Assembly: GCA_964583335.1 (NCBI GenBank)
Contig: CAZOVG010000006.1
Location: 43,675-107,674, forward strand
DNA: 64,000 bases
Direction: 5' to 3'
From: an uncultured Pseudobdellovibrionaceae bacterium
GTDB lineage: Bacteria; Pseudomonadota; Alphaproteobacteria; Micavibrionales; Micavibrionaceae
A program made the position numbers and the translations under genes. Position 1 is the stretch's first letter, and each line of letters begins with the position of its first letter. This document shows, one piece after another, positions 1,944 to 33,572 of the stretch. The notes beneath the pieces were generated by a model that was not told where the DNA came from, ran no database searches, and was given only the letters and a program-made list of their open reading frames with translations.

Positions 1944-2969
1944 TTATGCCTGTACCTTGTAGCCGAATTCAGCCGTGTTGATTTCGCTTTCCGTCCATGC
2001 GGTGGTGGTATCGGGGTTTTTCTCGATGATCTGGCGATAAACCCGATAATCGGTGCCGACGTTCTGGGAATCGCCCTCGTAATCGTTGCCGGATACCCGC
2101 GTCAGGGAACGGAGCGTGCGCCCACCCGCATCGTCCTTGCGCGCGGCCATGTTGACCTGGACACCGAAGATGGTTCCCGTGATCGCCGGAAGATTCCCGC
2201 AATCGAGCGTGTCACGCTGTCCAACCGTGTTGCTGTGGTTGTAGGTGGAATCGCTATCCAGCGTCGTGTCGTCAAGGTTGTCCCAGTTGCTGGCGCTTCC
2301 AACTTTGCTGAATTCTGAATAGTTTCCAGCACCGATGGGTCGCACCGTATCAACGCGCACATCACCGAGGAAGGTGTTGTTGGCGCTGCCTGTGCTATCG
2401 CAGACATACAGATCGTCGATGGCGTTGTCAGAGCCGCGGCCCCAGACCTGGATGCGGGCAACGGTCGAGAGCGTGGAGGATTGCTTGGTATCACCCGTGA
2501 AGTTGATCCAGGTGCTTTCGTTGACGCGCACCTCCCAATTCCCGCCGCTATCCGCGACCGTGAGCTTCACCTCGATATAGTTCCAGGTCAGGATCGGCAG
2601 CGCGTTGGTAGATGTCGCCAGCAAGGTGCCGCTTGTCACGGAGTTGCGGTAAACACGGATCGTGCCATCGTTTCCGATGGAAAGCGCGCCTTGGATGGTG
2701 CCAGCTTCATCGGTAAAACGCAGCAGTTCTGTCGTTTCCGTGGAGAGCAAATAAAGGCCAAAACCGATGATCCACGTCGATTGCGGATCAAAGGTCAGGC
2801 CGATGAAATCAGCCGAGGTACGGAACAGTAAAGCCGTGCTGCCGGAGCGGCGACCCGTTGTGGTCGTGATGCCGCTCGACCCGCCGCTGTCATTATAAGA
2901 GGTATATTTAAGCGGGAGCTGGCTGGGGATCGCATAATGATCAAAGCCGTCGATGAAGCGCAATGCCAT
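1944..2969 (-). CDS. Phage tail/fibre-associated protein, unknown function
   Basis: 341 aa ORF tightly packed between fibre-like genes. Composition is beta-rich and Thr/Ser/Gly-rich. I recognise no motif. Confidence 0.5.
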   Translation of the reverse strand: MALRFIDGFDHYAIPSQLPLKYTSYNDSGGSSGITTTTGRRSGSTALLFRTSADFIGLTFDPQSTWIIGFGLYLLSTETTELLRFTDEAGTIQGALSIGNDGTIRVYRNSVTSGTLLATSTNALPILTWNYIEVKLTVADSGGNWEVRVNESTWINFTGDTKQSSTLSTVARIQVWGRGSDNAIDDLYVCDSTGSANNTFLGDVRVDTVRPIGAGNYSEFSKVGSASNWDNLDDTTLDSDSTYNHSNTVGQRDTLDCGNLPAITGTIFGVQVNMAARKDDAGGRTLRSLTRVSGNDYEGDSQNVGTDYRVYRQIIEKNPDTTTAWTESEINTAEFGYKVQA

Positions 2970-2980
2970 GTGTTTTCTCC

Positions 2981-3712
2981 TTAAAGTCGAATGCCTGCCA
3001 GCGCGAAACCGATATCGGCCAGCGTGCTGTCTGCTGGGCTGGGCGCGATGATGGTCAGTACGTCGCCTGCTGCAAAATCTGTGAGCGTGGCCGCCGTGAA
3101 TGTCGGCGTGCTGACACCCGCCGCGAATTGCATCGTGGCGAATTGCGTACCGTTCTTGCGAATTGAAAACGTCGCCGTCGCGCCAGATGCCGTTCCGGCC
3201 ACACCACGGCTGTTGGCCATGCCTGCCGGAAAACGCACCGCGCGCGGTATGGGATAGCGCAACACGACCGCGCCGCCCGTAGGAATGCCCGCCAGCGTCC
3301 CGCCAATATCATAAGGGATGGTTGCTCCCACGGAGGTTTCGGCCACGATCTGAAAGGTCGTGCCATCACAATAAAGCAGCTTTCGTTCGCCAACCCCTAC
3401 GGAAATGGGCGTGCCGGACGGTGTTTTCACCGAAAGCGTGAAGCCGCCCGTGGTGGCGTTTTCCACCATCAGCAGTTTTGTTTTAGCCGGAATGGTGATC
3501 GTCCGACCCACCGTCAACGTACCTGTGAATCTCATCGACAACGTGCCGAGCATTTGCGCATCGGTGAGCGTGGTGTCCACATCGGCGATGGCAATGCTGG
3601 CAAGCTGACATAGCGCCTTGTCCAGCGCGTCGAAGGCGGCATTGGCCGTAACTTCTTTCTGTGCTTGGTTTGCGGCGATATGGTCGATCAATAAGTTGGG
3701 TGTTGTTGGCAT
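2981..3712 (-). CDS. DUF2793-like phage tail fibre protein
   Basis: The N-terminus MPTTPNLLIDHIAANQAQKEVTANAAFDALD matches the conserved start of DUF2793 proteins that follow GTA g15-type genes (from memory). Confidence 0.6.
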   Translation of the reverse strand: MPTTPNLLIDHIAANQAQKEVTANAAFDALDKALCQLASIAIADVDTTLTDAQMLGTLSMRFTGTLTVGRTITIPAKTKLLMVENATTGGFTLSVKTPSGTPISVGVGERKLLYCDGTTFQIVAETSVGATIPYDIGGTLAGIPTGGAVVLRYPIPRAVRFPAGMANSRGVAGTASGATATFSIRKNGTQFATMQFAAGVSTPTFTAATLTDFAAGDVLTIIAPSPADSTLADIGFALAGIRL

Positions 3713-24104: not shown

Positions 24105-24620
24105 ATGGCTGACACCATCCACGTCATTTACGCCCGCAAACCCTGCGACTGGCATGAAATCGAAAGTGGGTCGCGCCGCGATTGCGGCACGGCCTATCCA
24201 ACCGAAATCATCGAAACCAAAGAAATGACCGCCGCCGAGTACGATGCCTTCATCGCCAAGCCTCTGGCCAGCCGCGAATGGCTGGCGGGCAAAGGCGGCT
24301 GGAAGAACAACAACGTGCGTTACGCCGTTGCGGTCACCGCGCCGGAGCGCGAAACCATCTACGTCGATCCGTCAGGCTCCGACTATGGCCGTTATGTTGG
24401 GCGGCGGGTTGACGACGCTGGCGTCGTCAAATTCCCCGACATCCGTGTCCGCCTGACGGGCAAGGACGGCAACGCCTTCAACATTATCGGCCTGTGCAAG
24501 CGCGCGGCGCAAAAGGGCGGGCTTTCCGACGGCGAAGTCAAAGCCTTCCTCGACGAAGCCACGGCGGGCGATTACAACCATCTGCTGGCAACGTGCCAAC
24601 GATGGTTCGATTGCTATTAA
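24105..24620 (+). CDS. Hypothetical protein (171 aa)
   Basis: RBS AGGAGG. The C-terminal about 55 aa (VRLTGKDGNAFNIIGLCKRAAQKGGLSDGEVKAFLDEATAGDYNHLLATCQRWF) resemble a small stand-alone phage domain. Confidence 0.55.
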   Translation: MADTIHVIYARKPCDWHEIESGSRRDCGTAYPTEIIETKEMTAAEYDAFIAKPLASREWLAGKGGWKNNNVRYAVAVTAPERETIYVDPSGSDYGRYVGRRVDDAGVVKFPDIRVRLTGKDGNAFNIIGLCKRAAQKGGLSDGEVKAFLDEATAGDYNHLLATCQRWFDCY

Positions 24621-25840
24621 GCAGCGACCAGCTCGGCCTTCTTGCCCGTAAATTCTTCCCAGCGTTTAACGATCACGTCGACGTATTTTGGGTCAAGCTC
24701 GATCATCCGGCATTGGCGGTTCAATTTTTCGCAAGCGATCAATGTGGTGCCGGAGCCGCCAAAGCAATCCAGCACGATGTCGCGGCTCTTGCTGCTGTTG
24801 TTGACAGCGCGTTCCACCAGCTCCACGGGCTTCATGGTGGGGTGCAGCTCGTTGCGCACAGGTTTGTTCACAAACCACACATCGCCTTGATCGCGCGCAC
24901 CGCACCAGTAATGATCGTTGCCTTGTTTCCAGCCGTAAAGGATCGGCTCGTATTGGCGCTGATAATCCGCGCGGCCAAGGGTGAAGGTATTTTTCGCCCA
25001 GATGACAAACGTCGACCATTTGCCGCCCGCCTCGATGAAGGCTTTTTGCAGCGTATGTAATTCGCTCGATGACATGCAGACGTAAAGCGCGCCTTTGCAA
25101 ACGGTCAGCATATTGACGCAAGCGTCGTAAAGGAACCGCTCGAAGCCGTCGCCGAGATTGTCATTCATGATGGTGCGGTTCGTGCCGCGCAGTTTGTCCT
25201 TGGCGGTGTTGCCGTAATCCACGTTGTAAGGCGGATCCGTGAACACCATATCCGCCAGCGCGCCGTCCAGCACCCGCTCGACGTTGGCCAGCACGGTGCT
25301 GTCGCCGCAGAGCAAAAGGTGGTTGCCCAGCCGCCAGAGGTCGCCAGGCTTGCTAACGGGCGTTTCCGGCGCTTCCGGCACGGCATCCTCGTCGGTCTGG
25401 CCTTCCGCCGTATTCGGCTCGGCCAGCAGGGCTGCCAGCTCGTCGTCGGAAAAACCGATGACGGGCAAGTCAAAATCTTCCGCTGCCAGCGCCGTCATTT
25501 CAGCGCGCAGCAAATCCTCATCCCATCCGGCATTGAGCGCCAGCTTGTTGTCGGCGATGACGTAGGCGCGCTTTTGCGCCTCGGTCAGATGATCCAGCAC
25601 GACGACGGGGACTTGCGCAAGGCCGAGTTGTTTTGCCGCCTGGAGGCGACCGTGGCCCGCGATAATGCCCGCCGCCGTGTCGACAAGGATCGGATTGAGA
25701 AAACCAAATTCGGCAATACTGGCCGCGATCTGGTTGACCTGTTCCGGCGAATGGGTGCGCGGGTTCTTGTCGTAAGGGACGAGCTTATCCGTTGGCCAGA
25801 CCTCGATGCGGTCGGCCATGCGTTTGTTTAAATCAGACAT
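24617..25840 (-). CDS. ParB-like nuclease domain fused to N6-adenine/N4-cytosine DNA methyltransferase
   Basis: The N-terminus has the ParB/Srx motif (PYDKNPRTHSPEQVNQIAASIAEFGFLNPILVD). The DPPY motif is FTDPPYNVDYG, and the C-terminal FGGSGTT is the AdoMet motif. Confidence 0.9.
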   Translation of the reverse strand: MSDLNKRMADRIEVWPTDKLVPYDKNPRTHSPEQVNQIAASIAEFGFLNPILVDTAAGIIAGHGRLQAAKQLGLAQVPVVVLDHLTEAQKRAYVIADNKLALNAGWDEDLLRAEMTALAAEDFDLPVIGFSDDELAALLAEPNTAEGQTDEDAVPEAPETPVSKPGDLWRLGNHLLLCGDSTVLANVERVLDGALADMVFTDPPYNVDYGNTAKDKLRGTNRTIMNDNLGDGFERFLYDACVNMLTVCKGALYVCMSSSELHTLQKAFIEAGGKWSTFVIWAKNTFTLGRADYQRQYEPILYGWKQGNDHYWCGARDQGDVWFVNKPVRNELHPTMKPVELVERAVNNSSKSRDIVLDCFGGSGTTLIACEKLNRQCRMIELDPKYVDVIVKRWEEFTGKKAELVAA

Positions 25841-27048
25841 GGTTGTTCAGTTTCCGTTGAATTCGATATTTGCAGCAGCCGCGAGAGTTCGGAACGCATA
25901 AGCCGCAACCAGGGGGACAACGCCGTTTCCGCAGAGCCGCAATCTGTCCACCCGATAGGCCAGCCCATCAGCGCCTCCACGAACAGCGGGTTCAAGGTCA
26001 GGCCGTGCGCGCAAGAACCTTTCCCATCCACATCTGTCCGAGGGGCCTGGCGGGAAAGCAGACCGTTCGTCGGCACATTCGTTTCCTTGAGTGTTCCATC
26101 CTTCCAGTCTCGCGCCGTGGGCGTTGCCCATTGGCGCATGATCTCCGTGCGGTTGAGGCCGCTCGATCTCTCGCCGCTGCAGGCCCGCGGTGTCGTCCAT
26201 TGAATTTTCGCTGGGCGGTATGGCTGGCTGTCTTGCGCCAGCATCAAATCCTGCTTCGTATAGGGAAAATCTTTCGGCTGCATCACCGTTTCCGCCAGCG
26301 AGGGCGTGCGCAGCACGTTTCGGCCATCCTTGCGGATCATCTTCTCCGGCGACCGTGCGCGCGTGACATGAGCATCCGTCGCTGTCGCGGTAGGCCAGGA
26401 TGAAAAGCCGTTCGCGCTTATGGGGCGCGCCGATTTCTTCCGCTGTAAACAAGCCCGCCTTAACGCGGTAACCCATTGATCGAAGGTCATCGTGGACTTG
26501 TTCGAAGCCCAATCGTAAATGACCGCCGACGTTTTCAAAGAAACAAACGGTGGGTTCAACCTCGCGCACGATGCGGGCGATGTGTGGCCAGAGATGGCGC
26601 GGGTCTTTATCGCCGAGCTTTCGTCCGGCGATGGAAAATGGCTGGCACGGATAGCCGCCATGGATGATATCCACGAGGCCGCGCCACGGTCTGCCGTCGA
26701 AGGTGGCAACGTCGTCCCAGACAGGCGCGCTATCCAAGGCCGCGTTTTCCATCCGCGCCACGAGCGTCGCTGCCGCGTAGGCTTCCCGCTCGACGTAACC
26801 CACAGTTCGATATCCTGGGACGGCGATATGGAGTCCGAGGTCAAGACCTCCGGCTCCGGCGCAGAGGGATAATCCGAACAGGCTTCGTTCGTCTCCGCCG
26901 TCAATCGGCCATGCGTGATCGCATCCGGCGGCAGATAGAGCCAAACCATCCAAATAAAAACTCCGTTTTTTCTTAATCGTGGTCGAGGATAAAGCAGGCG
27001 ATATGTCGGCCTGTGCCTTTGCCTTGCGATCCGTCCTCGGTTGCGCAC
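25828..27048 (-). CDS. Alternative +1-frame ORF overprinted on the C5-methyltransferase gene (status unresolved; plausible functional part 25828..26490)
   Basis: A 406-codon open frame on the same strand. Its distal half contains WPTATATD, WTTPRACSGE, WATPTARDWKDG and LNPLFVEALMGWPIGWTD, which are motifs of another phage C5-MTase C-terminal class (from memory). Confidence 0.3.
   Translation of the reverse strand: MRNRGRIARQRHRPTYRLLYPRPRLRKNGVFIWMVWLYLPPDAITHGRLTAETNEACSDYPSAPEPEVLTSDSISPSQDIELWVTSSGKPTRQRRSWRGWKTRPWIARLSGTTLPPSTADRGAASWISSMAAIRASHFPSPDESSAIKTRAISGHTSPASCARLNPPFVSLKTSAVIYDWASNKSTMTFDQWVTALRRACLQRKKSARPISANGFSSWPTATATDAHVTRARSPEKMIRKDGRNVLRTPSLAETVMQPKDFPYTKQDLMLAQDSQPYRPAKIQWTTPRACSGERSSGLNRTEIMRQWATPTARDWKDGTLKETNVPTNGLLSRQAPRTDVDGKGSCAHGLTLNPLFVEALMGWPIGWTDCGSAETALSPWLRLMRSELSRLLQISNSTETEQPCLI
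25847..26953 (-). CDS. DNA (cytosine-5)-methyltransferase
   Basis: Motifs LCAGAGG (I), GGYPCQPFS (IV), ENV (V), RERLFILA (VIII) and RLRLCGNGVVP (X) are all present. The start is uncertain. A TTG at 26953 with GGAG 7 nt upstream avoids overlap with the upstream gene; the only in-frame ATG is at 27064. Confidence 0.85.
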   Translation of the reverse strand: MDGLALSAAGCDHAWPIDGGDERSLFGLSLCAGAGGLDLGLHIAVPGYRTVGYVEREAYAAATLVARMENAALDSAPVWDDVATFDGRPWRGLVDIIHGGYPCQPFSIAGRKLGDKDPRHLWPHIARIVREVEPTVCFFENVGGHLRLGFEQVHDDLRSMGYRVKAGLFTAEEIGAPHKRERLFILAYRDSDGCSCHARTVAGEDDPQGWPKRAAHALAGGNGDAAERFSLYEAGFDAGARQPAIPPSENSMDDTAGLQRREIERPQPHGDHAPMGNAHGARLEGWNTQGNECADERSAFPPGPSDRCGWERFLRARPDLEPAVRGGADGLAYRVDRLRLCGNGVVPLVAAYAFRTLAAAANIEFNGN

Positions 27049-27401
27049 CAGCGCACGTCACCAAGGTTTCTGACTTTCGCGCCCGCCGCCAGCAGCATCA
27101 AAACCCACTTGTCGATGGGGTAAACCATCACGACGCGCTTTCCTTTTTGAAACTCCGCGATGGATTTTCTTGCCCAGGCGGTCGGGCCTTTCTTTTTTCC
27201 GTCGTGCATGACGGAGCCGAAGGGCGGGTTCACATAGTTTGACTCGCCCCATTCCGCATCCAGCCCGTCAAAACCATCGGGGCGCGGAAACGGACACGGG
27301 TCGAAAGTGAATTTGAATTCCGCGTTGAGCTTTTCCATCAGGGCTGGCGGCGTCAGCCAGTAATGTTTTCCGTCGCCGCCGTTGCCTTGTTCAAAACCCA
27401 T
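26973..27401 (-). CDS. Phage Dam-type N6-adenine DNA methyltransferase (Dam_N6_MTase family)
   Basis: ORF trimmed to the ATG at 27401. HYWLTPPALMEKLNAEFKFTFDPCP and the NPPF motif (YVNPPFG) are present. Confidence 0.8.
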   Translation of the reverse strand: MGFEQGNGGDGKHYWLTPPALMEKLNAEFKFTFDPCPFPRPDGFDGLDAEWGESNYVNPPFGSVMHDGKKKGPTAWARKSIAEFQKGKRVVMVYPIDKWVLMLLAAGAKVRNLGDVRWCATEDGSQGKGTGRHIACFILDHD

Positions 27402-27652
27402 GCCTGTCAATCGTTCGCGTGTTGTAACTTGTAACCGCCCTGTAACCCGTTTCGCGGGGCAGACGCTAGAAAAGCAAAACGCCTCGCCCTCCCGCATTGG
27501 CTTTCGGCCAGGAAGGACCCAAGATTTCAAATGGTTAGAGGGGGCATCGCTTTGTGCAGCGGTTTTGTACCCGCACGTCCCGCGATGATAGGTTACATCC
27601 TGCCAGAAAATGTTGCGTCTGTCTCATGCATAAGTGTTGCAACAACTTTCCG

Positions 27653-28819: not shown

Positions 28820-30955
28820 TCATGCCGCTTCCTCCTCTGGATAAACCCAGATGGAGGGGTTTTCGACGGGCAGGATTGCGCCATTGCCAGGCTGCTTGAA
28901 ATGCGTTGGCAAGAGCGGACGCATATCGTTGGAAATCTCGCCCGTGTCCGGATCGACGGTTTCCTCGCCCGTGGGGACTTCCATGCCCTCGACGCACATC
29001 ACGCCGTATTTGCTCTTGGCGGCGTTATCTTTGTTGAATTTGACGTAGCCTTTCGTGGCCAGCACATCGATGCGGTCGCGGATGGAATGGTTGCCGCCCA
29101 GACCAGCCTTGTTTTCGAATGCCTGACAGAACTGGCTCGGCGTATAGAGCGCGCCCCTGCGGCCTTCATCGAACAGCAATTGCAGGATGACGTCGTGACG
29201 GCGACGGCGCTCGTTATCGAGCCGCTGCCCGTAATCCTTGTTCACAAGACGCTCGGAATGGTGATCCATCTCGCGCCAGCGCCCGTCGATTTTATCGACC
29301 CATTTGGGCGGAATGGCCTCGCCATTGCGCAGCTCGAACATGAGCTGGCGCAGGCTTTGCTGTTCATCGGGGCGGAACAGGATCATGCCCGTGGAATAGA
29401 AGCTGCGCAGGGAGCCAGCGCCGCTCAATCCCTGGAACGGATCATCCTCCAGCATTTTCTTGCTGATCTTCTTGGTATGGTGGGCAAGGATGATGCCGAG
29501 GTCAGGATTTACCAGAAAACGCAGGCGTTCCACGCGATCCTGCAAAAAAGTCAGCATGGCGGTGTTGTCGTTTTCACCTTCGCCATCATAGACGTTGCGC
29601 AAAGGGTCGATGGCGATGATGTCGAGCAGCCGTGGATCGAAATGGCGCAGGATGGCATCGCGCACCATCTCAACGCCTTTTTCATCCAGCAGCATCCGCA
29701 CCTGGGGCGTGATGATCAGGTTTTGCCGGACAAGTGGCAGGAATCTGGGATCGAAATTGATCTGCTGGAGGCGTTCGCGCAGATAGTGGTAGCCGATTTC
29801 CGCCTGAAAGAAGAAAATTTTGAGCGGCTTTGCGGGGCGCATGCCGAGAAAGGGCAGTCCTGCGGCCATATGCGCCAGCAAGGACAGCATGAAATCGGTT
29901 TTGCCGACCTTTGGCGCGCCACCCAACACCAGCAAGCCACTAGGCGTCAGCACGCGTGGGGCAATGATGTCGTCCGGCATGGGGCTGCCGTCATCGAGCA
30001 GATGCCCGACGCTGAAAGCAGGTAGCGCGGACGCTGGCGGGATGGTCATGCGCGGCGCGGAGGCCAGAAACGCAGGAACATCCATGCCATCACGCACGGC
30101 ATCGGCCACGTCCCAGCCTTCGGGCTTATCTTCGGGCGGGATCAGAATGGAGATCGATGCTACGCCGAGCGTGCGCAGCTTTCCAACAACGGCGTCGGCA
30201 TAATGCTTTCCGGCTTCGTCGTGATCAGGCCAGATCATCACATGCTTGCCGTAAAGCGGTGACCAGTCGGTTTTGTCCACGGGCGCGTTCGCACCGTTCA
30301 TGGCCGTGGTAGCGCAGATGCCGAGCGCAATCATCGCGTCGGCGCATTTTTCACCCTCGACGAGAACGATGCTGTTGGCGCTGGCAATGCCTGGCTGATT
30401 GTAAAGCGGTCTTGGCTCCGGCGCGCGGCGCTTGCGCGCTTTCACGTCCCACGGACGGAATTCTTTTCCTGACGGCGTGTCGTAGCGGTACACGCAGGCG
30501 ATCAGGTCGCCTTGTGCGTTGAGATAGTCCCATTTCGCGCTGTGCGGCCCTAAATCCTCGCTTTCCTCGGCCTTACCTTTCGGCAAGGGGCGGGCCGCAG
30601 TGCCAAGCCATTCATGGACCGCGCTGACGATGTCGGGAAAGCGATGGCGGACATCAAGGCCGTGAACAGCTCCCCAGAGCGAAAGAATGTCGCCGCCATC
30701 GCCCGTGGCGAAGTCGTGCCACATGCCGATCTTTACGCCGGACAGCTCAATGGACAGACTGTCACCCTTGTTGCCATGGACATCCCCGACGACGAATTTG
30801 CCGTTGCGGATTTTGCCATTCGGCAAAAGATGGAAAAGCACCTCGCGCAAGCGCCCATGCAGGCGCTCTTTCAGATCATCCGAGGTCAGTCGTTCTTCCG
30901 GCTTCGGGCGGGTCTGGTCGGGCGCGTCGTTGAAATCATTCCACGCTCCCGTCAT
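28820..30955 (-). CDS. Bifunctional Toprim primase / RepA-DnaB-like replicative helicase ATPase
   Basis: The start at 30955 has an ATGA overlap. WHDFATGDGGDILSL, Toprim VLVEGEKCADA and PDHDEAG, and Walker A GGAPKVGKT are present. Confidence 0.8.
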   Translation of the reverse strand: MTGAWNDFNDAPDQTRPKPEERLTSDDLKERLHGRLREVLFHLLPNGKIRNGKFVVGDVHGNKGDSLSIELSGVKIGMWHDFATGDGGDILSLWGAVHGLDVRHRFPDIVSAVHEWLGTAARPLPKGKAEESEDLGPHSAKWDYLNAQGDLIACVYRYDTPSGKEFRPWDVKARKRRAPEPRPLYNQPGIASANSIVLVEGEKCADAMIALGICATTAMNGANAPVDKTDWSPLYGKHVMIWPDHDEAGKHYADAVVGKLRTLGVASISILIPPEDKPEGWDVADAVRDGMDVPAFLASAPRMTIPPASALPAFSVGHLLDDGSPMPDDIIAPRVLTPSGLLVLGGAPKVGKTDFMLSLLAHMAAGLPFLGMRPAKPLKIFFFQAEIGYHYLRERLQQINFDPRFLPLVRQNLIITPQVRMLLDEKGVEMVRDAILRHFDPRLLDIIAIDPLRNVYDGEGENDNTAMLTFLQDRVERLRFLVNPDLGIILAHHTKKISKKMLEDDPFQGLSGAGSLRSFYSTGMILFRPDEQQSLRQLMFELRNGEAIPPKWVDKIDGRWREMDHHSERLVNKDYGQRLDNERRRRHDVILQLLFDEGRRGALYTPSQFCQAFENKAGLGGNHSIRDRIDVLATKGYVKFNKDNAAKSKYGVMCVEGMEVPTGEETVDPDTGEISNDMRPLLPTHFKQPGNGAILPVENPSIWVYPEEEAA

Positions 30956-31704
30956 GCCGTCACCTGCCAACACCGCCCGCGATAAGGGCAGAAAACGCAT
31001 TCAAAATGGTCATCGCTCATGGCGACGCGCGGTAATACTTCTCCGGCTTCTGTGGCGCGGATCAGATTGACGGCACGGTCGCTGGCTTCCTGCGCCAGAG
31101 CAGCATCGAATGGCACAAGCTCGTGATAAATCTCCGCCGTGTCCTTATTGACAGCGGTGAACAATGCTGGGTTTTTGGAAATGCCAGGGACGCTGTCTTC
31201 CATGTATGCCTGATAGGTGGCGACCTGAACGGCATAGATCGGCTTTGATTTTTTCAGGCCGTTTTTGACGGTATCGCGCCAGGATTTGGCGTTGAGCGAT
31301 TTGCATTCCCAGATGGCGGGAAAACGCATGTCAAGATCAGGCGGCGCGGCGTCGATGATGCCGTCCACATGCCCGCGAATTCTGCCGCCCGCGACGGAAA
31401 AGCCGAAAGCCTCGCCATTGGGCTTCTTCGTGAACACGGTAAATCCGGCATGTTGCAGCCATGCCAGCGCCAATGCCTCGAAGGCGTGGCCGATCTCGAA
31501 AATGCGCAGGGTTTGCCCTTTGAATTCCTCGTCTTTGGGCGTTTTCGTGTATTCGTATTGCAGAGCGCGGGCGCAGGATACGCCCAGGCGCGACGCGCCC
31601 AGATATTCTCGCTCTGGCGCTTTCGCGCGCACGGATTGGATCGCGGCATCGATATGCGCGTTGATCTGATCGGCGACCGATGGACGATGATTGAAATCGA
31701 GCAT
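30952..31704 (-). CDS. PD-(D/E)XK nuclease, Cas4/RecB-like with C-terminal Cys cluster
   Basis: GHVDGII...WECKS core, an N-terminal Cys (SCARAL) and a C-terminal CVFCPYRGRC are present. Confidence 0.7.
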   Translation of the reverse strand: MLDFNHRPSVADQINAHIDAAIQSVRAKAPEREYLGASRLGVSCARALQYEYTKTPKDEEFKGQTLRIFEIGHAFEALALAWLQHAGFTVFTKKPNGEAFGFSVAGGRIRGHVDGIIDAAPPDLDMRFPAIWECKSLNAKSWRDTVKNGLKKSKPIYAVQVATYQAYMEDSVPGISKNPALFTAVNKDTAEIYHELVPFDAALAQEASDRAVNLIRATEAGEVLPRVAMSDDHFECVFCPYRGRCWQVTA

Positions 31705-31914: not shown

Positions 31915-33572
31915 GAAGCACCTCGCGCGGATTGAATGGCGCGGTGGATGCCATCGCGGTTGAAACGCATGGTCATCAACGCCGACGCCTTGTAACGGGT
32001 CATGCCGAAGTCGTTGCGATGGTCGGGCAGATACTGAAGCTGTTTGTCCGTGGCAGGCTGATGCACCCAGGAGCGCGTTTTGTGTGCCGTTTCATCTGTT
32101 TCGTTGACGTTGAGCCAGTCATCGGCAGCGGCAAAGCAGACGATACGTTCCCCGACCGCCAGCAATTTGGGCGCATGGTTTTTCTTGCCGCCCACGGCGT
32201 GCCATTCGCCATCCTTGAAGAACACGCCGCCCCAGGCATTGAAGCCCGTTGCCAGGAAGTAGCGGTCGTTCTGCTGCAAATCGACCCACAGGAAGCTGGA
32301 TCGCTTGAGCAGATCGATCTCGGCCATGACGAAACCGTTTTCCGCCAGTTCTTTCGCGGCGGCCTGCGCCTTCCATTCGTAGCCGCACAAGGGGCATTCT
32401 TTGACGGCGGCAGGAACCTCCGCGCCGCATTCCGGACATTCCTTGGTGGGTGCATCGCCGACGCCGATCTGGTCGTCGAGATTGACATCCTGCTCCAACG
32501 ATCCGTGCAACAGCGTGGACGTGCCGAAATCGAGGACGATGCAGTCTTTTTTGATGATGTCGGGATATTCAGCCGGATCAATGGTGCGCAGACCGCGACC
32601 GATCATCTGGATCATTGTGGATTTATAAGAGCTGGGGCGCAACAACACGACGCAAGAGGTCGGCGGGTGATCCCAGCCTTCCGTCAACACAGCGACGTTG
32701 ACGATAACTTGGGCTTCGCCATCCGTGTATTCCGATAAAACAGCGTTACGCTCGGCATCCGTCATCTGGCCGTGGACAAATACGGTGGGGATGCCCGCGC
32801 CATTGAAGCTCTTCGCCACATCCTCGGCGTGCTGGACAGTTGAGCAGAACACGACGGTTTTACGGTCTCCGGCCTTTTGATGCCAATGCTTGACCACGGC
32901 GTCGTTGATGGGGCGCGTATTCATGATCGCCGACACGGCACCCATGTCGAAATCGCTGGCGGTCTTTTTCACCTGGCGCAGTTCGTCCTGCACGCCTACG
33001 TCCATGACAAAGGTGCGCGGCGGCACAAGGTGGCCGGAGGCGATCAACTCCCTGACCGTGATCTGGTCGGAGACGTTCGAGAAAACCGGACGCAAGCCTT
33101 TCTTGTCGCCGCGATTGGGCGTGGCGGTCATACCCAGCAATTTCACGCCAGCGTTGGCTTGTTTAACGCGCTCAATCACGCGCATGTAACTGTCCGCGCG
33201 GGCATGGTGCGCCTCGTCGATCACCAGAATGTCCATCGGCGGCATGGCCGACAGGTTGTTCTCGCGCGAGAGCGTCTGCACCATGGCGAACGTGACTTCG
33301 CCGTTCCACGATTTGAACGAGGCGTCGAATACGCTGGTCGAGAGATCGGGGTTGACGCGCTTGAACTTATCCTCGTTCTGGAACGTCAGCTCATCGCGGT
33401 GCGCCAGCACGCAGGCTTTGCCTGGCTTGTGCTTGAACATTTCGCCGATGATCGCGGACAGCATGATCGTCTTGCCCGCTCCGGTGGGCGCGACGGCCAG
33501 CGTATTGCCGTGCTTGTTCAGCGCGTCGACGGTGCGCGTGACCAGCTCTTTTTGTCTTGGCCTCAGCAACAT
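31911..33572 (-). CDS. DEAD/DEAH-box superfamily-2 helicase with zinc ribbon
   Basis: Motif I APTGAGKT, motif II VIDEAHH and motif VI QMIGRGLR are present. The zinc ribbon is CPECG...CPLCG. Confidence 0.85.
   Translation of the reverse strand: MLLRPRQKELVTRTVDALNKHGNTLAVAPTGAGKTIMLSAIIGEMFKHKPGKACVLAHRDELTFQNEDKFKRVNPDLSTSVFDASFKSWNGEVTFAMVQTLSRENNLSAMPPMDILVIDEAHHARADSYMRVIERVKQANAGVKLLGMTATPNRGDKKGLRPVFSNVSDQITVRELIASGHLVPPRTFVMDVGVQDELRQVKKTASDFDMGAVSAIMNTRPINDAVVKHWHQKAGDRKTVVFCSTVQHAEDVAKSFNGAGIPTVFVHGQMTDAERNAVLSEYTDGEAQVIVNVAVLTEGWDHPPTSCVVLLRPSSYKSTMIQMIGRGLRTIDPAEYPDIIKKDCIVLDFGTSTLLHGSLEQDVNLDDQIGVGDAPTKECPECGAEVPAAVKECPLCGYEWKAQAAAKELAENGFVMAEIDLLKRSSFLWVDLQQNDRYFLATGFNAWGGVFFKDGEWHAVGGKKNHAPKLLAVGERIVCFAAADDWLNVNETDETAHKTRSWVHQPATDKQLQYLPDHRNDFGMTRYKASALMTMRFNRDGIHRAIQSARGAS

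What the first reader, a model, noticed from the sequence alone, without database searches (positions are those of the whole stretch)
25828..27064. Two ~405-codon ORFs overlap in different frames on the same strand across the C5-cytosine methyltransferase locus
Minus-strand ORFs 25847..27064 (405 codons, frame A) and 25828..27048 (406 codons, frame B, +1 relative to A) overlap for ~1.2 kb. Frame A carries a complete C5-MTase motif set: LCAGAGG, GGYPCQPFS, ENV, RERLFILA, FPPGP...RPDLEPA...DGLAYRVDRLRLCGNGVVP. Frame B looks like noise for its first ~185 codons. From about 26490 downward it reads like genuine protein. It has three W-x-T-[PA]-x-A units (WPTATATD, WTTPRACSGE, WATPTARDWKDG), then LNPLFVEALMGWPIGWTD and SPWLRLMRSELSRLL. 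From memory (not searched), I recognise these as the repeat and terminal signatures of the C-terminal half of another widespread class of phage C5-methyltransferases. The next-longest same-strand alternative-frame ORF inside any confident gene here is 193 codons (32000..32581), so this one is an outlier. GC3 over a sample stretch is similar in both frames (about 77% vs 73%). Possible explanations: an overprinted second gene (internal ATG at 26490 gives 220 aa); a +1 frameshift isoform that swaps the target-recognition half after motif VIII (26390..26416); a fossil of an evolutionary frame switch; or indel errors in the sequence.
Basis: partly seen in the sequence, partly recalled or inferred. 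Interest (0 to 1): 0.78.

Follow-up and report, generated by a model that had tools for sequence, protein, structure and literature searches.

The report
Two-frame, two-subunit phage cytosine methyltransferase gene
One stretch of phage DNA is read in two reading frames from start codons four bases apart, probably giving the catalytic half and the DNA-recognition half of a cytosine methyltransferase as separate proteins; one enzyme of this kind was described in 1995, but the layout turns out to be very widespread and mostly unannotated.

Summary
On the minus strand, ORF alpha (26953..25847, TTG start, 368 aa) and ORF beta (26949..25828, ATG start, 373 aa, +1 frame) overlap almost completely.

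In 79 of 79 homologous loci from other species, both frames stay open and an alpha-frame start codon is followed, one base later, by a beta-frame ATG. Codon-phase variability shows interleaved selection:
- Frame B is selected for the first 8 codons (MxWLYLPP).
- Frame A is selected across motifs I-VIII.
- Frame B is selected across the W-x-T-P target-recognition region and the motif-IX-like LNPLFVEALMGWPIGWT.
- Frame A is selected across a small FPPGP..W island and motif X (RLRLCGNGVVP).

Each frame avoids stop codons even where it is not under selection. This fits two full-length polypeptides and argues against ribosomal frameshifting.

The closest precedent is M.EcoHK31I, whose beta subunit (motif IX) is nested in another frame of alpha. 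The differences here are co-initiation, near-total overlap, and the recognition region lying in beta. The same +1 layout occurs in Paenibacillus, Synechococcus, Klebsiella, Komagataeibacter and E. coli (pro)phages. A beta profile finds 19,573 protein clusters at E<=1e-10.

Heterodimer formation and enzyme activity are inferred, not shown.

The parts
25847..26953 (-). ORF alpha (frame A), 368 aa: TTG start at 26953, TGA stop at 25849..25847. It carries C5-methyltransferase motifs I-VIII, then an unconstrained spacer, then motif X.
   Evidence: ORF; start codon. Pfam PF00145 scores 116 bits over aa 28-192. PHROG 363 matches full length at E=6e-60. In the AlphaFold2 model aa 20-190 are folded, aa 193-295 have pLDDT ~30, and helix 345-360 has pLDDT 93. 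Foldseek matches M.HaeIII and M.HhaI at E~1e-12.
25828..26949 (-). ORF beta (frame B, +1 relative to alpha), 373 aa: ATG start at 26949, TAA stop at 25830..25828. Its last 13 nt overlap the next gene.
   Evidence: the frame-B ATG is invariant in 79/79 loci. P0122 and P0123 are called as 373 aa from this ATG. PHROG 1008 (annotated 'DNA methyltransferase') matches at E=4e-18. There are 510 homologues,573 clusters at E<=1e-10.
26961..26964 (-). Shine-Dalgarno-like GGAG, 7 nt before the alpha TTG and 11 nt before the beta ATG.
   Evidence: Sequence. The same motif is present in the window's clade, L001, L002 and L004.
26926..26949 (-). Conserved N-terminal octapeptide of beta, MVWLYLPP.
   Evidence: across 79 loci, entropy is 0.7-1.2 bits at most frame-B third positions (0 at the single-codon Met and Trp, 0.17 at codon 8), about 0 at first and second positions from the Trp codon to the first Pro, and up to 0.7 bits at codons 2, 6 and 8. 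The alpha residues over the same bases vary.
26393..26878 (-). Catalytic core selected in frame A: motif I (FGLSLCAGAGG), IV (GYPCQPFS), VI (ENV) and VIII (RERLFILA). Frame B here is mostly an unconstrained shadow.
   Evidence: frame-A third positions are the most variable; differences between the window and L001 at A-codon positions 1/2/3 are 11/4/25; mean amino-acid entropy is 0.32 in frame A and 0.71 in frame B.
26075..26397 (-). Region selected in frame B, with W-x-T-P units (TGG at 26397, 26199 and 26130). By position this is the target-recognition region. In frame A it is a variable-length, low-complexity spacer.
   Evidence: A position 1 (= B position 3) is the most variable; differences between the window and L001 are 42/11/9; the alpha alignment is poorly conserved and gap-rich here; alpha is predicted disordered here; frame A has no stops in 77/77 loci, against 1.88 expected per locus.
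26024..26056 (-). Alpha island FPPGPSDRCGW, overlapping beta LLSRQAP. Both frames are constrained.
   Evidence: at codons -42..-38 and at W(-32) all three positions are nearly invariant, and the little variation present is at frame-A third positions. P338, P339 and W347 are invariant in the alpha alignment.
25946..26002 (-). Motif-IX-like element of beta, LTLNPLFVEALMGWPIGWT.
   Evidence: variation is almost only at B third positions. L319, N320, F323 and G329 are invariant in 76 beta homologues. Joined to alpha's motif X, it aligns to positions 442-492 of the PHROG 116 methyltransferase profile at E=1.5e-4, which beta alone does not.
25880..25954 (-). Motif X of alpha, RVDRLRLCGNGVVPLVAAYAFRTLA. 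The beta tail here is a shadow.
   Evidence: from codon -5 onward, variation is at frame-A third positions apart from a few synonymous-type first-position changes (e.g. CTG/TTG). RVDRLRLCGNGVVP is invariant in 16 homologues. pLDDT is 93.
26973..27530 (-). Upstream neighbour: a small N6-adenine-methyltransferase-like gene in the third frame, ending 19 nt before the alpha start.
   Evidence: PHROG 111 (annotated 'DNA methyltransferase') matches at E=2e-12.
24617..25840 (-). Downstream neighbour: a ParB-domain/N6-adenine methyltransferase fusion. Its ATG at 25840 lies 6 nt after the alpha stop and inside the end of beta.

Best explanation
This is a two-subunit, phage-encoded DNA cytosine-5 methyltransferase whose subunits are encoded by two almost completely overlapping ORFs on the same strand.

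Ribosomes start either at TTG 26953 (frame A) or at ATG 26949 (frame B). In the window one GGAG serves both. In most relatives the starts sit just after the stop codon of the upstream gene, so ribosomes could re-initiate there.

Alpha supplies the large catalytic domain: motifs I-VIII, plus the motif X helix that packs back onto it. These two parts are joined by a spacer whose sequence is free to vary.

Beta has a conserved 8-residue N-terminus, then about 180 largely unconstrained residues, then the small domain: the W-x-T-P recognition modules and motif IX.

The two chains would assemble into an active enzyme, as in M.EcoHK31I. Its likely role is to protect the phage genome from host restriction, alongside the two neighbouring methyltransferases.

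Shown here: both ORFs are conserved, selection is interleaved between the frames, each frame is kept open where it is not selected, and the paired start codons are conserved. Inferred: both proteins are made, they form a heterodimer, the W-x-T-P region is the recognition domain, and the biological role.
For: 1. In 79/79 homologous loci from different species, the +1 frame is open over the whole gene and carries LNP.F.E.LMG.P plus 2-5 W.TP units.
2. The phase of nucleotide variability switches along the gene: A, then B, then both, then A. At single-codon resolution the B-to-A switch falls between GWT and RLRLCGNGVVP, with an A-selected island (FPPGP..W) inside the B-selected region. The window compared with its nearest relative shows the same pattern: 11/4/25 in the core and 42/11/9 in the spacer.
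3. The frame not under selection is still kept free of stops.
   - Frame A in the spacer has 0 stops in 77/77 loci against 1.88 expected, while the third frame is at expectation, 4.13 against 3.89.
   - In independent phages the expected number of frame-A stops is 9.0, 7.7, 3.0, 2.7 and 3.8, and the observed number is 0 in each.
   - Frame B in the core has 0 stops in 77/77 loci. In phage C75C1 (48% GC) there are 2 stops against 13.3 expected.
4. The start arrangement [ATG/GTG/TTG]-N-ATG is present in 79/79 loci. Beta codons 1-8 vary mainly at B third positions.
5. The alpha model has a folded catalytic domain, a disordered spacer and a confident motif X helix. Foldseek matches M.HaeIII and M.HhaI.
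6. An artificial A-B-A composite aligns to Pfam PF00145 positions 4-315 rather than 4-165. It also gains 15.6 bits on the PHROG 116 methyltransferase profile, with beta's motif IX and alpha's motif X aligning as one continuous stretch.
7. There is a biochemical precedent. [quoted passage not shown]
Against: There is no direct evidence that either protein is made or that they associate.

AlphaFold2 gave a poor model of beta alone: mean pLDDT 52, with only aa ~190-250 confident. Foldseek on that model and a sequence search of PDB chains found nothing. Calling beta the 'small domain' therefore rests on its position in the gene and on modest profile matches (E=1.5e-4).

It is odd that beta would carry about 180 residues with almost no selection on their sequence. 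An internal start, such as ATG 26490 here or the internal start with its own ribosome-binding site in Paenibacillus phages, could also be used.

The 79 loci collapse to about 3 groups at <80% nucleotide identity in the conserved core, so they are not independent. Independence comes mainly from the five distant phage and prophage examples.

Confidence: 0.75

Rival explanations
1. Programmed ribosomal frameshifting. One ribosome shifts +1 after motif VIII and back (-1 or +2) before motif X, producing a single canonical methyltransferase with the order I-VIII, recognition region, IX, X.
For: The selected segments lie in the canonical order and are nearly contiguous. B selection ends at GWT and A selection starts at RLRLCGNGVVP. 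The artificial A-B-A composite aligns to single-chain methyltransferase profiles over its full length.
Against: No slippery site is conserved: the Leu codon in RERLF is CTC/CTG/TTG/CTT/CTA, and there is no heptamer at the second junction. Frame A is kept open through the spacer and frame B through the core, which frameshifting does not require. The A-selected FPPGP..W island inside the B-selected region would need four shifts. The conserved frame-B ATG and N-terminal peptide would be unexplained. M.EcoHK31I works as two polypeptides.
Confidence: 0.06
2. There are two subunits, but beta is made only from an internal start (ATG 26490, 220 aa, or nearby). The 5' frame-B ATG and the open N-terminal half of beta would be incidental or regulatory.
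For: In Paenibacillus phage Shelly, beta is internal: 234 aa, with a GGGAGG 12 nt upstream and frame-B stops before it. M.EcoHK31I beta is also internal. The ATG at the position of 26490 is shared by the window's clade. Frame B shows little selection over the core.
Against: The frame-B ATG next to the alpha start is invariant in 79/79 loci, and the following 7 codons are conserved in frame B. With no frame-B stop downstream, any initiation there yields full-length beta. Frame B is open over the whole core even in low-GC relatives. No ribosome-binding motif precedes ATG 26490. Most of the top hits begin at profile position 1.
Confidence: 0.13
3. Only alpha is functional. Frame B is an accidental open frame of a GC-rich gene, a sequencing or assembly artefact, or a decaying remnant.
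For: In the ~65-70% GC relatives, synonymous shuffles leave the +1 frame stop-free in 20-60% of trials. Long ORFs also occur in the +2 frame there.
Against: Purifying selection acts in frame B over about 450 nt. Beta homologues reach down to 35% identity at >90% coverage, including low-GC lineages. Stop avoidance is significant at 47-48% GC. The layout is identical in complete isolate genomes.
Confidence: 0.02

Closest known systems
M.EcoHK31I (E. coli HK31, target YGGCCR), a two-polypeptide C5-methyltransferase (Lee, Kam & Shaw 1995, as described in PMC2836561 and PMC3404938)
   Same: Alpha carries motifs I-VIII and X. Beta carries motif IX and is encoded on the same strand in a different reading frame inside the alpha gene. 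Both chains are needed for activity. Silent removal of the beta start codons abolishes activity.
   Different: In M.EcoHK31I, beta is described as a short internal ORF and the recognition domain is assigned to alpha. Here beta starts 4 nt after alpha, is as long as alpha (373 vs 368 aa), and carries the region selected as the recognition domain. The start pair is conserved. Sequence homology to M.EcoHK31I was not tested, and no biochemistry exists for this family.
M.AquI (Agmenellum quadruplicatum), a two-subunit C5-methyltransferase (PMC3404938)
   Same: It is a natural C5-methyltransferase split into two polypeptides that must associate.
   Different: M.AquI is split linearly: alpha has motifs I-VIII plus part of the variable region, and beta has the rest plus IX-X. 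Here motif X stays with the catalytic chain, and the small domain is lifted out into another reading frame.
Paenibacillus larvae phage methyltransferase with an annotated 'g55 internal gene' (phage Shelly gp55/gp56, NC_041909)
   Same: The same +1-frame nested ORF, with W-x-T-P units and LNPEWVECLMGFPIGWT, lies inside a C5-methyltransferase gene. tblastn with the window's beta gives E=5e-4.
   Different: Beta there is internal (234 aa) with its own ribosome-binding site, and frame B has stops before and after it. The annotators recorded the ORF, but the phage-genomics paper read here (PMC6070908) does not discuss it.
Single-chain phage C5-methyltransferases (Pfam PF00145; PHROG 116)
   Same: The same catalytic motifs are present, and the order of functional segments along the DNA is the same.
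   Different: In those enzymes all segments are in one frame. Here the recognition region and motif IX are read in the +1 frame as part of a separate chain.

Membership tests
DNA (cytosine-5) methyltransferase, Pfam PF00145 | Profile match above the curated cut-off, with motifs I, IV (PCQ), VI (ENV) and VIII | tested here: met
   Alpha scores 116 bits against a cut-off of 22, over aa 28-192 and profile positions 4-165. The motifs can be read directly in the translation. The predicted fold matches M.HaeIII and M.HhaI.
DNA (cytosine-5) methyltransferase, Pfam PF00145 | Motifs IX and X in the same chain, after the recognition domain | tested here: not met
   In alpha the profile match stops at position 165. 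Only the artificial A-B-A composite reaches position 315. Motif X is in alpha, and the motif-IX-like element is in beta.
M.EcoHK31I-type two-polypeptide C5-methyltransferase | The large chain has motifs I-VIII and X but not IX | tested here: met
M.EcoHK31I-type two-polypeptide C5-methyltransferase | The second chain is encoded on the same strand in another reading frame within the first gene | tested here: met
   The +1 frame is conserved in 79/79 loci and in five distant phages or prophages.
M.EcoHK31I-type two-polypeptide C5-methyltransferase | The second chain carries motif IX | tested here: inconclusive
   Beta's LNPLFVEALMGWPIGWT joined to alpha's motif X aligns continuously to PHROG 116 positions 442-492 (E=1.5e-4) and to PHROG 1008 positions 262-322. 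The structural model of beta was too poor to confirm this.
M.EcoHK31I-type two-polypeptide C5-methyltransferase | Both polypeptides are made and both are required for methylation | not testable with these tools
   This needs expression and methylation assays. Selection and stop avoidance in both frames are only indirect support.
M.EcoHK31I-type two-polypeptide C5-methyltransferase | Sequence homology to M.EcoHK31I alpha and beta | not tested
The 1995 paper (PMC306636) is not held.
Programmed ribosomal frameshift gene | A conserved slippery sequence at the point where the selected frame changes | tested here: not met
   The Leu codon in RERLF varies (CTC 36, CTG 34, TTG 5, CTT 2, CTA 1). No conserved heptamer is present at GWT/RLRL.
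Programmed ribosomal frameshift gene | The zero frame terminates soon after the shift site, with no need for both frames to stay open | tested here: not met
   Both frames are open end to end, and significantly so.
De novo overprinted gene | The second frame encodes a new protein unrelated to the function of the first | tested here: not met
   The conserved part of beta corresponds to the methyltransferase's own recognition region and motif IX.

The most novel reading that the evidence does not exclude
A very large family of phage and prophage cytosine methyltransferases may be obligate heterodimers made from two co-initiated, almost fully overlapping ORFs of about 370 codons. The beta profile finds tens of thousands of protein clusters, in phages of Alphaproteobacteria, Enterobacteria, cyanobacteria and Firmicutes. 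The start codons are 4-10 nt apart, often right after the upstream gene's stop codon. The small domain is read in the +1 frame, and each chain drags along a long unselected 'shadow' segment. This would be one of the longest and most widespread conserved same-strand gene overlaps in prokaryotic viruses. It is invisible to standard annotation, and codon optimisation of the gene would destroy it.
Probability: 0.6. Interest if true: 0.85.

Novelty: new variant of a known kind. Interest (0 to 1): 0.78.

Why it matters
Annotation. RefSeq and most phage records annotate only alpha, as a complete 'DNA cytosine methyltransferase', or call beta a hypothetical protein. The beta profile finds 37,074 clusters at E<=0.001. 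A systematic correction therefore looks possible.

Practice. A codon-optimised or recoded alpha gene would silently destroy beta and should give an inactive enzyme. This matters for methylome engineering, for characterising methyltransferases for REBASE (the restriction-enzyme database), and for phage engineering.

Evolution. The overlap avoids dual-coding conflict by interleaving. Almost every stretch is constrained in only one frame, and each protein tolerates a long unconstrained segment. This suggests an origin by re-framing the small domain of a single-chain ancestor. Such a step would be viable because fragments of C5-methyltransferases can complement each other in trans (PMC3404938).

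Translation. The conserved NTG-N-ATG start pair, usually 4-7 nt after an upstream stop codon and without a ribosome-binding motif, is a natural system for studying how re-initiating ribosomes divide between two frames.

Tried and rejected
- Pfam and NCBIfam scans of frame B found nothing. Only PHROGs recognised it.
- The beta profile against PDB chain sequences gave only spurious capsid hits at E>=0.01.
- AlphaFold2 on beta alone gave mean pLDDT 52. Foldseek on that model gave nothing below E=2, so there is no structural confirmation of the small-domain assignment.
- tblastn of beta against plasmids gave a single hit with no annotated gene.
- blastn of the locus against phages matched only short stretches of the gene and its flanks.
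- The original M.EcoHK31I paper (PMC306636) is not held, so homology to that enzyme could not be checked.
- Seven literature searches found no description of a widespread two-frame methyltransferase family or of the paired start codons. The reviews and papers opened on frameshifting and frame transitions do not mention it. The library lacks most subscription journals, so earlier reports cannot be excluded.
- A CTT_T +1 slip at RERLF (present in the window as CGG CTT TTC) was considered and rejected, because CTT occurs in only 2 of 78 loci.
- The first Python run timed out and was repeated.
- The stop-avoidance statistic for frame B over the catalytic core is weak in high-GC relatives (P(0) about 0.6), and the shuffle null also over-predicts third-frame stops there (1.13 observed against 2.81 expected). 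I rely on the low-GC loci for that claim.

Full report
**Observation**

One search confirms two minus-strand ORFs, 25847..27064 (frame A, 405 aa) and 25828..27048 (frame B, +1, 406 aa). The window around them is a phage or prophage. Portal, large and small terminase, primase/helicase, a Cas4-like exonuclease, a helicase and a Sak4-like protein flank a row of three methyltransferase genes. Window GC is about 58%.

Frame A matches Pfam PF00145 only over its first half, but matches PHROG 363 over its full length. Frame B matches PHROG 1008, annotated 'DNA methyltransferase', at E=4e-18.

**Both frames have large families of homologues**

Frame A has more than 5,000 relatives, including full-length ones at 55-76% identity from isolate genomes. 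The C-terminal 220 aa of frame B have 510 relatives, down to about 35% identity at more than 90% coverage. Almost none of these has a Pfam domain.

In the frame-A alignment, the part between motif VIII and FPPGP is variable in length and low in complexity, with recurring [MLV]-[AG]-[DN]-[APT] units. Read one base later, those units are the W-x-T-P units of frame B (NTG GCC GAC CC -> TGG CCG ACC). The first base varies while TGG is kept, which points to selection in frame B.

**Test on DNA from other species**

A scan of one genome per species returned 80 loci, mostly Rhodobacterales and other Alphaproteobacteria, including complete genomes. In all 79 loci that could be analysed, the +1 frame is open across essentially the whole gene and contains LNP.F.E.LMG.P and 2-5 W.TP units.

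In a nucleotide alignment, the most variable codon position changes along the gene:
- 26878-26384: frame-A position 3 is most variable, so frame A is selected.
- 26383-26069: frame-A position 1, which is frame-B position 3, is most variable, so frame B is selected.
- 26068-25934: all three positions are low, so both frames are constrained.
- 25933-25847: frame-A position 3 again.

At single-codon resolution:
- LTLNPLFVEALMGWPIGWT (26002-25946) varies almost only at frame-B third positions.
- RLRLCGNGVVPLVAAYAFRTLA (25945-25880) varies at frame-A third positions.
- The three codons RVD/GWT are invariant at every base.
- FPPGP..W (26056-26024) is an island selected in frame A inside the frame-B region.

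The window compared with its closest genomic relative shows the same pattern directly. Differences at A-codon positions 1/2/3 are 11/4/25 in the core and 42/11/9 in the spacer.

**Both frames are kept open where they are not selected**

Shuffling synonymous frame-B codons in the spacer predicts 1.88 frame-A stops per locus, with a mean chance of zero stops of 0.15. Seventy-seven of 77 loci have none, while the third frame is at expectation, 4.13 observed against 3.89 expected.

In independent phages the expected numbers of frame-A stops in the spacer are 9.0 (C75C1), 7.7 (Paenibacillus phage Shelly), 3.0, 2.7 and 3.8. The observed number is 0 in every case, and the third frame is again at expectation.

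Conversely, frame B has no stop over motifs I-VIII in 77/77 loci. That statistic is weak at high GC. It is clear in the window (whole gene: 3.4 stops expected, 0 of 100 shuffles stop-free) and in C75C1 (48% GC, 2 stops against 13.3 expected, open run of 461 codons against a shuffle maximum of 309).

**Start codons**

All 79 loci have an alpha-frame start codon (ATG 65, GTG 8, TTG 5, ATT 1) followed one base later by a frame-B ATG. In the window these are TTG 26953 and ATG 26949, behind GGAG 26964-26961. The next seven beta codons (M-T/V/A-W-L-Y-L/I-P-P) vary mainly at frame-B third positions. Beta is therefore translated from this ATG, and because there is no stop downstream it is full length: 373 aa, as called for P0122 and P0123.

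In 73 of 79 loci a long upstream ORF ends 4-7 nt before the alpha start, and only 5 loci have a ribosome-binding-like motif. In most relatives both starts are therefore probably reached by ribosomes re-initiating after termination. This is an inference.

**What the two products look like**

The AlphaFold2 model of alpha has a confident Rossmann-type domain (aa 20-190), a 100-residue stretch with pLDDT about 30 and no secondary structure (aa 193-295, the spacer), and a confident C-terminal helix at motif X. Foldseek matches M.HaeIII and M.HhaI over about 172 columns.

Beta alone modelled poorly, with mean pLDDT 52. Neither Foldseek nor a PDB sequence search recognised it.

Indirect evidence that beta's conserved part is the enzyme's small domain:
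- It lies where the recognition region and motif IX lie in single-chain enzymes.
- An artificial A-B-A composite aligns to PF00145 positions 4-315 rather than 4-165.
- The composite gains 15.6 bits on PHROG 116, aligning to profile positions 211-492 rather than 211-390.
- The fragment 'beta LNP..GWT + alpha RLRLCGNGVVP' aligns as one continuous stretch to PHROG 116 positions 442-492 at E=1.5e-4, which pure beta does not.

**Mechanism and rivals**

The best reading is two polypeptides. Alpha is the large domain (I-VIII + X) with a free spacer. Beta is a conserved N-terminal peptide, then a largely free segment, then the small domain (recognition region + IX). Together they would form the active enzyme.

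Double ribosomal frameshifting would explain the order of the selected segments. It would not explain the stop avoidance in the unselected frames, the frame-A island inside the frame-B region, the conserved frame-B ATG and N-terminal peptide, or the absence of any conserved slip site (the Leu codon in RERLF varies).

Use of an internal beta start, alone or in addition, cannot be excluded. Paenibacillus phages use one.

Chance, GC artefact and sequencing error are excluded by the conservation data.

**Comparison with what is known**

The literature held here describes only two natural two-polypeptide C5-methyltransferases, M.AquI and M.EcoHK31I. [quoted passage not shown] Both chains are needed, and silent removal of the beta starts abolishes activity (PMC2836561; PMC3404938). 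The window's gene is of that kind.

It differs in three ways: co-initiation 4 nt apart, near-total overlap with beta as long as alpha, and the recognition region lying in beta.

It is also far from unique. The same +1 layout occurs in the following:

| Source | Alpha | Beta | Beta start relative to alpha | Annotation in the record |
|---|---|---|---|---|
| Synechococcus phage Yong-M2-251 | 379 aa | 371 aa | 7 nt downstream | alpha only |
| Phage C75C1 | 480 aa | 459 aa | 7 nt downstream | alpha only |
| Komagataeibacter phage phiKX1 | 548 aa | 374 aa | 10 nt downstream | part of beta only, as hypothetical protein |
| Klebsiella phage YMC16/01/N133 | 356 aa | 323 aa | internal (ATG 913; alpha starts at 828) | alpha only |
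| E. coli O103:H2 12009 prophage | 337 aa | at least 294 aa | internal (ORF from 772; alpha starts at 711) | alpha only |
| Paenibacillus larvae phage Shelly | 345 aa | 234 aa | internal, own ribosome-binding site | both; beta as 'g55 internal gene' |

A beta profile finds 37,074 protein clusters at E<=0.001 and 19,573 at E<=1e-10 among 1.84 billion cluster representatives. Most of the top hits start at the MxWLYLP end.

I found no paper describing this as a family, or describing the paired start. The library is incomplete, so this is not proof of absence.

**Verdict**

It is a new, widespread variant of a rare known kind, the M.EcoHK31I-type split methyltransferase. It has consequences for annotation, for recoding of these genes, and for understanding how long gene overlaps are tolerated. 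Production of both proteins, their association and their activity remain to be shown experimentally.

Noticed in passing
window 24617-27530 (minus strand): Three methyltransferase genes sit in a row between the packaging and replication modules: a small N6-adenine-methyltransferase-like gene (26973-27530), the alpha/beta C5 gene, and a ParB-domain/N6-adenine methyltransferase fusion (24617-25840). The fusion's ATG lies inside the end of beta.
   Followed up: partly
L001-L080, 30 nt upstream of the alpha start: In 73 of 79 loci a long upstream ORF stops 4-7 nt before the alpha start (typically TGAcATGcATG), and only 5 loci have a ribosome-binding-like motif. This suggests both starts are fed by termination and re-initiation. 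The window's clade uses a GGAG instead.
   Followed up: partly
window about 26743-26717 (alpha codons 45-53 from motif I; beta RPWIARLSG): A small island inside the catalytic core is more conserved in frame B than in frame A: amino-acid entropy is 0.38 in B and 0.67 in A, with several beta residues invariant where alpha varies. The N-terminal half of beta may therefore not be entirely free.
   Followed up: partly
L006, L007, L010 and many other high-GC loci, about 2470-3174: The +2 frame also carries a 235-codon open run over the catalytic core. Third-frame stops there are below the synonymous-shuffle expectation (1.13 observed against 2.81 expected). This is unexplained. It may reflect codon-pair bias at high GC, or relatedness among the loci.
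   Followed up: no
P0002, P0186, P0200, P0209 (metagenome proteins): Several called proteins switch between the alpha and beta frames at different points. P0002, for example, is 95-97% identical to the window and runs from frame A into frame B near the C-terminus. These are either natural indel variants or assembly errors, and they were not resolved.
   Followed up: no
L017, beta codon 5: One metagenome-assembled genome (Albidovulum sp.) has TAG at beta codon 5 (MAWL*LPP). It is the only locus where the 5' part of beta is interrupted. It could be a pseudogene, a sequencing error, or a case that uses an internal start.
   Followed up: no
L084 (Komagataeibacter phage phiKX1), 684-2330: The 548-aa alpha ORF is not annotated at all in the record, and only the last 202 aa of beta are annotated, as a hypothetical protein. 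Alpha there also carries a long extra insertion after the end of beta.
   Followed up: no
window 28901-30025 (+): A 374-codon ORF lies antisense to the primase/helicase gene (28820-31000, minus strand). It is probably a compositional artefact of the GC-rich sequence. It was not examined.
   Followed up: no
alpha homologues P0014, P0028, P0030 (435-457 aa): Spacer length and the number of W-x-T-P units vary together, from 2 to 5 units with alpha stop-to-stop ORFs of 322-554 codons. This suggests the recognition region is modular and gains or loses units. Whether that changes or multiplies the target specificity is unknown.
   Followed up: no
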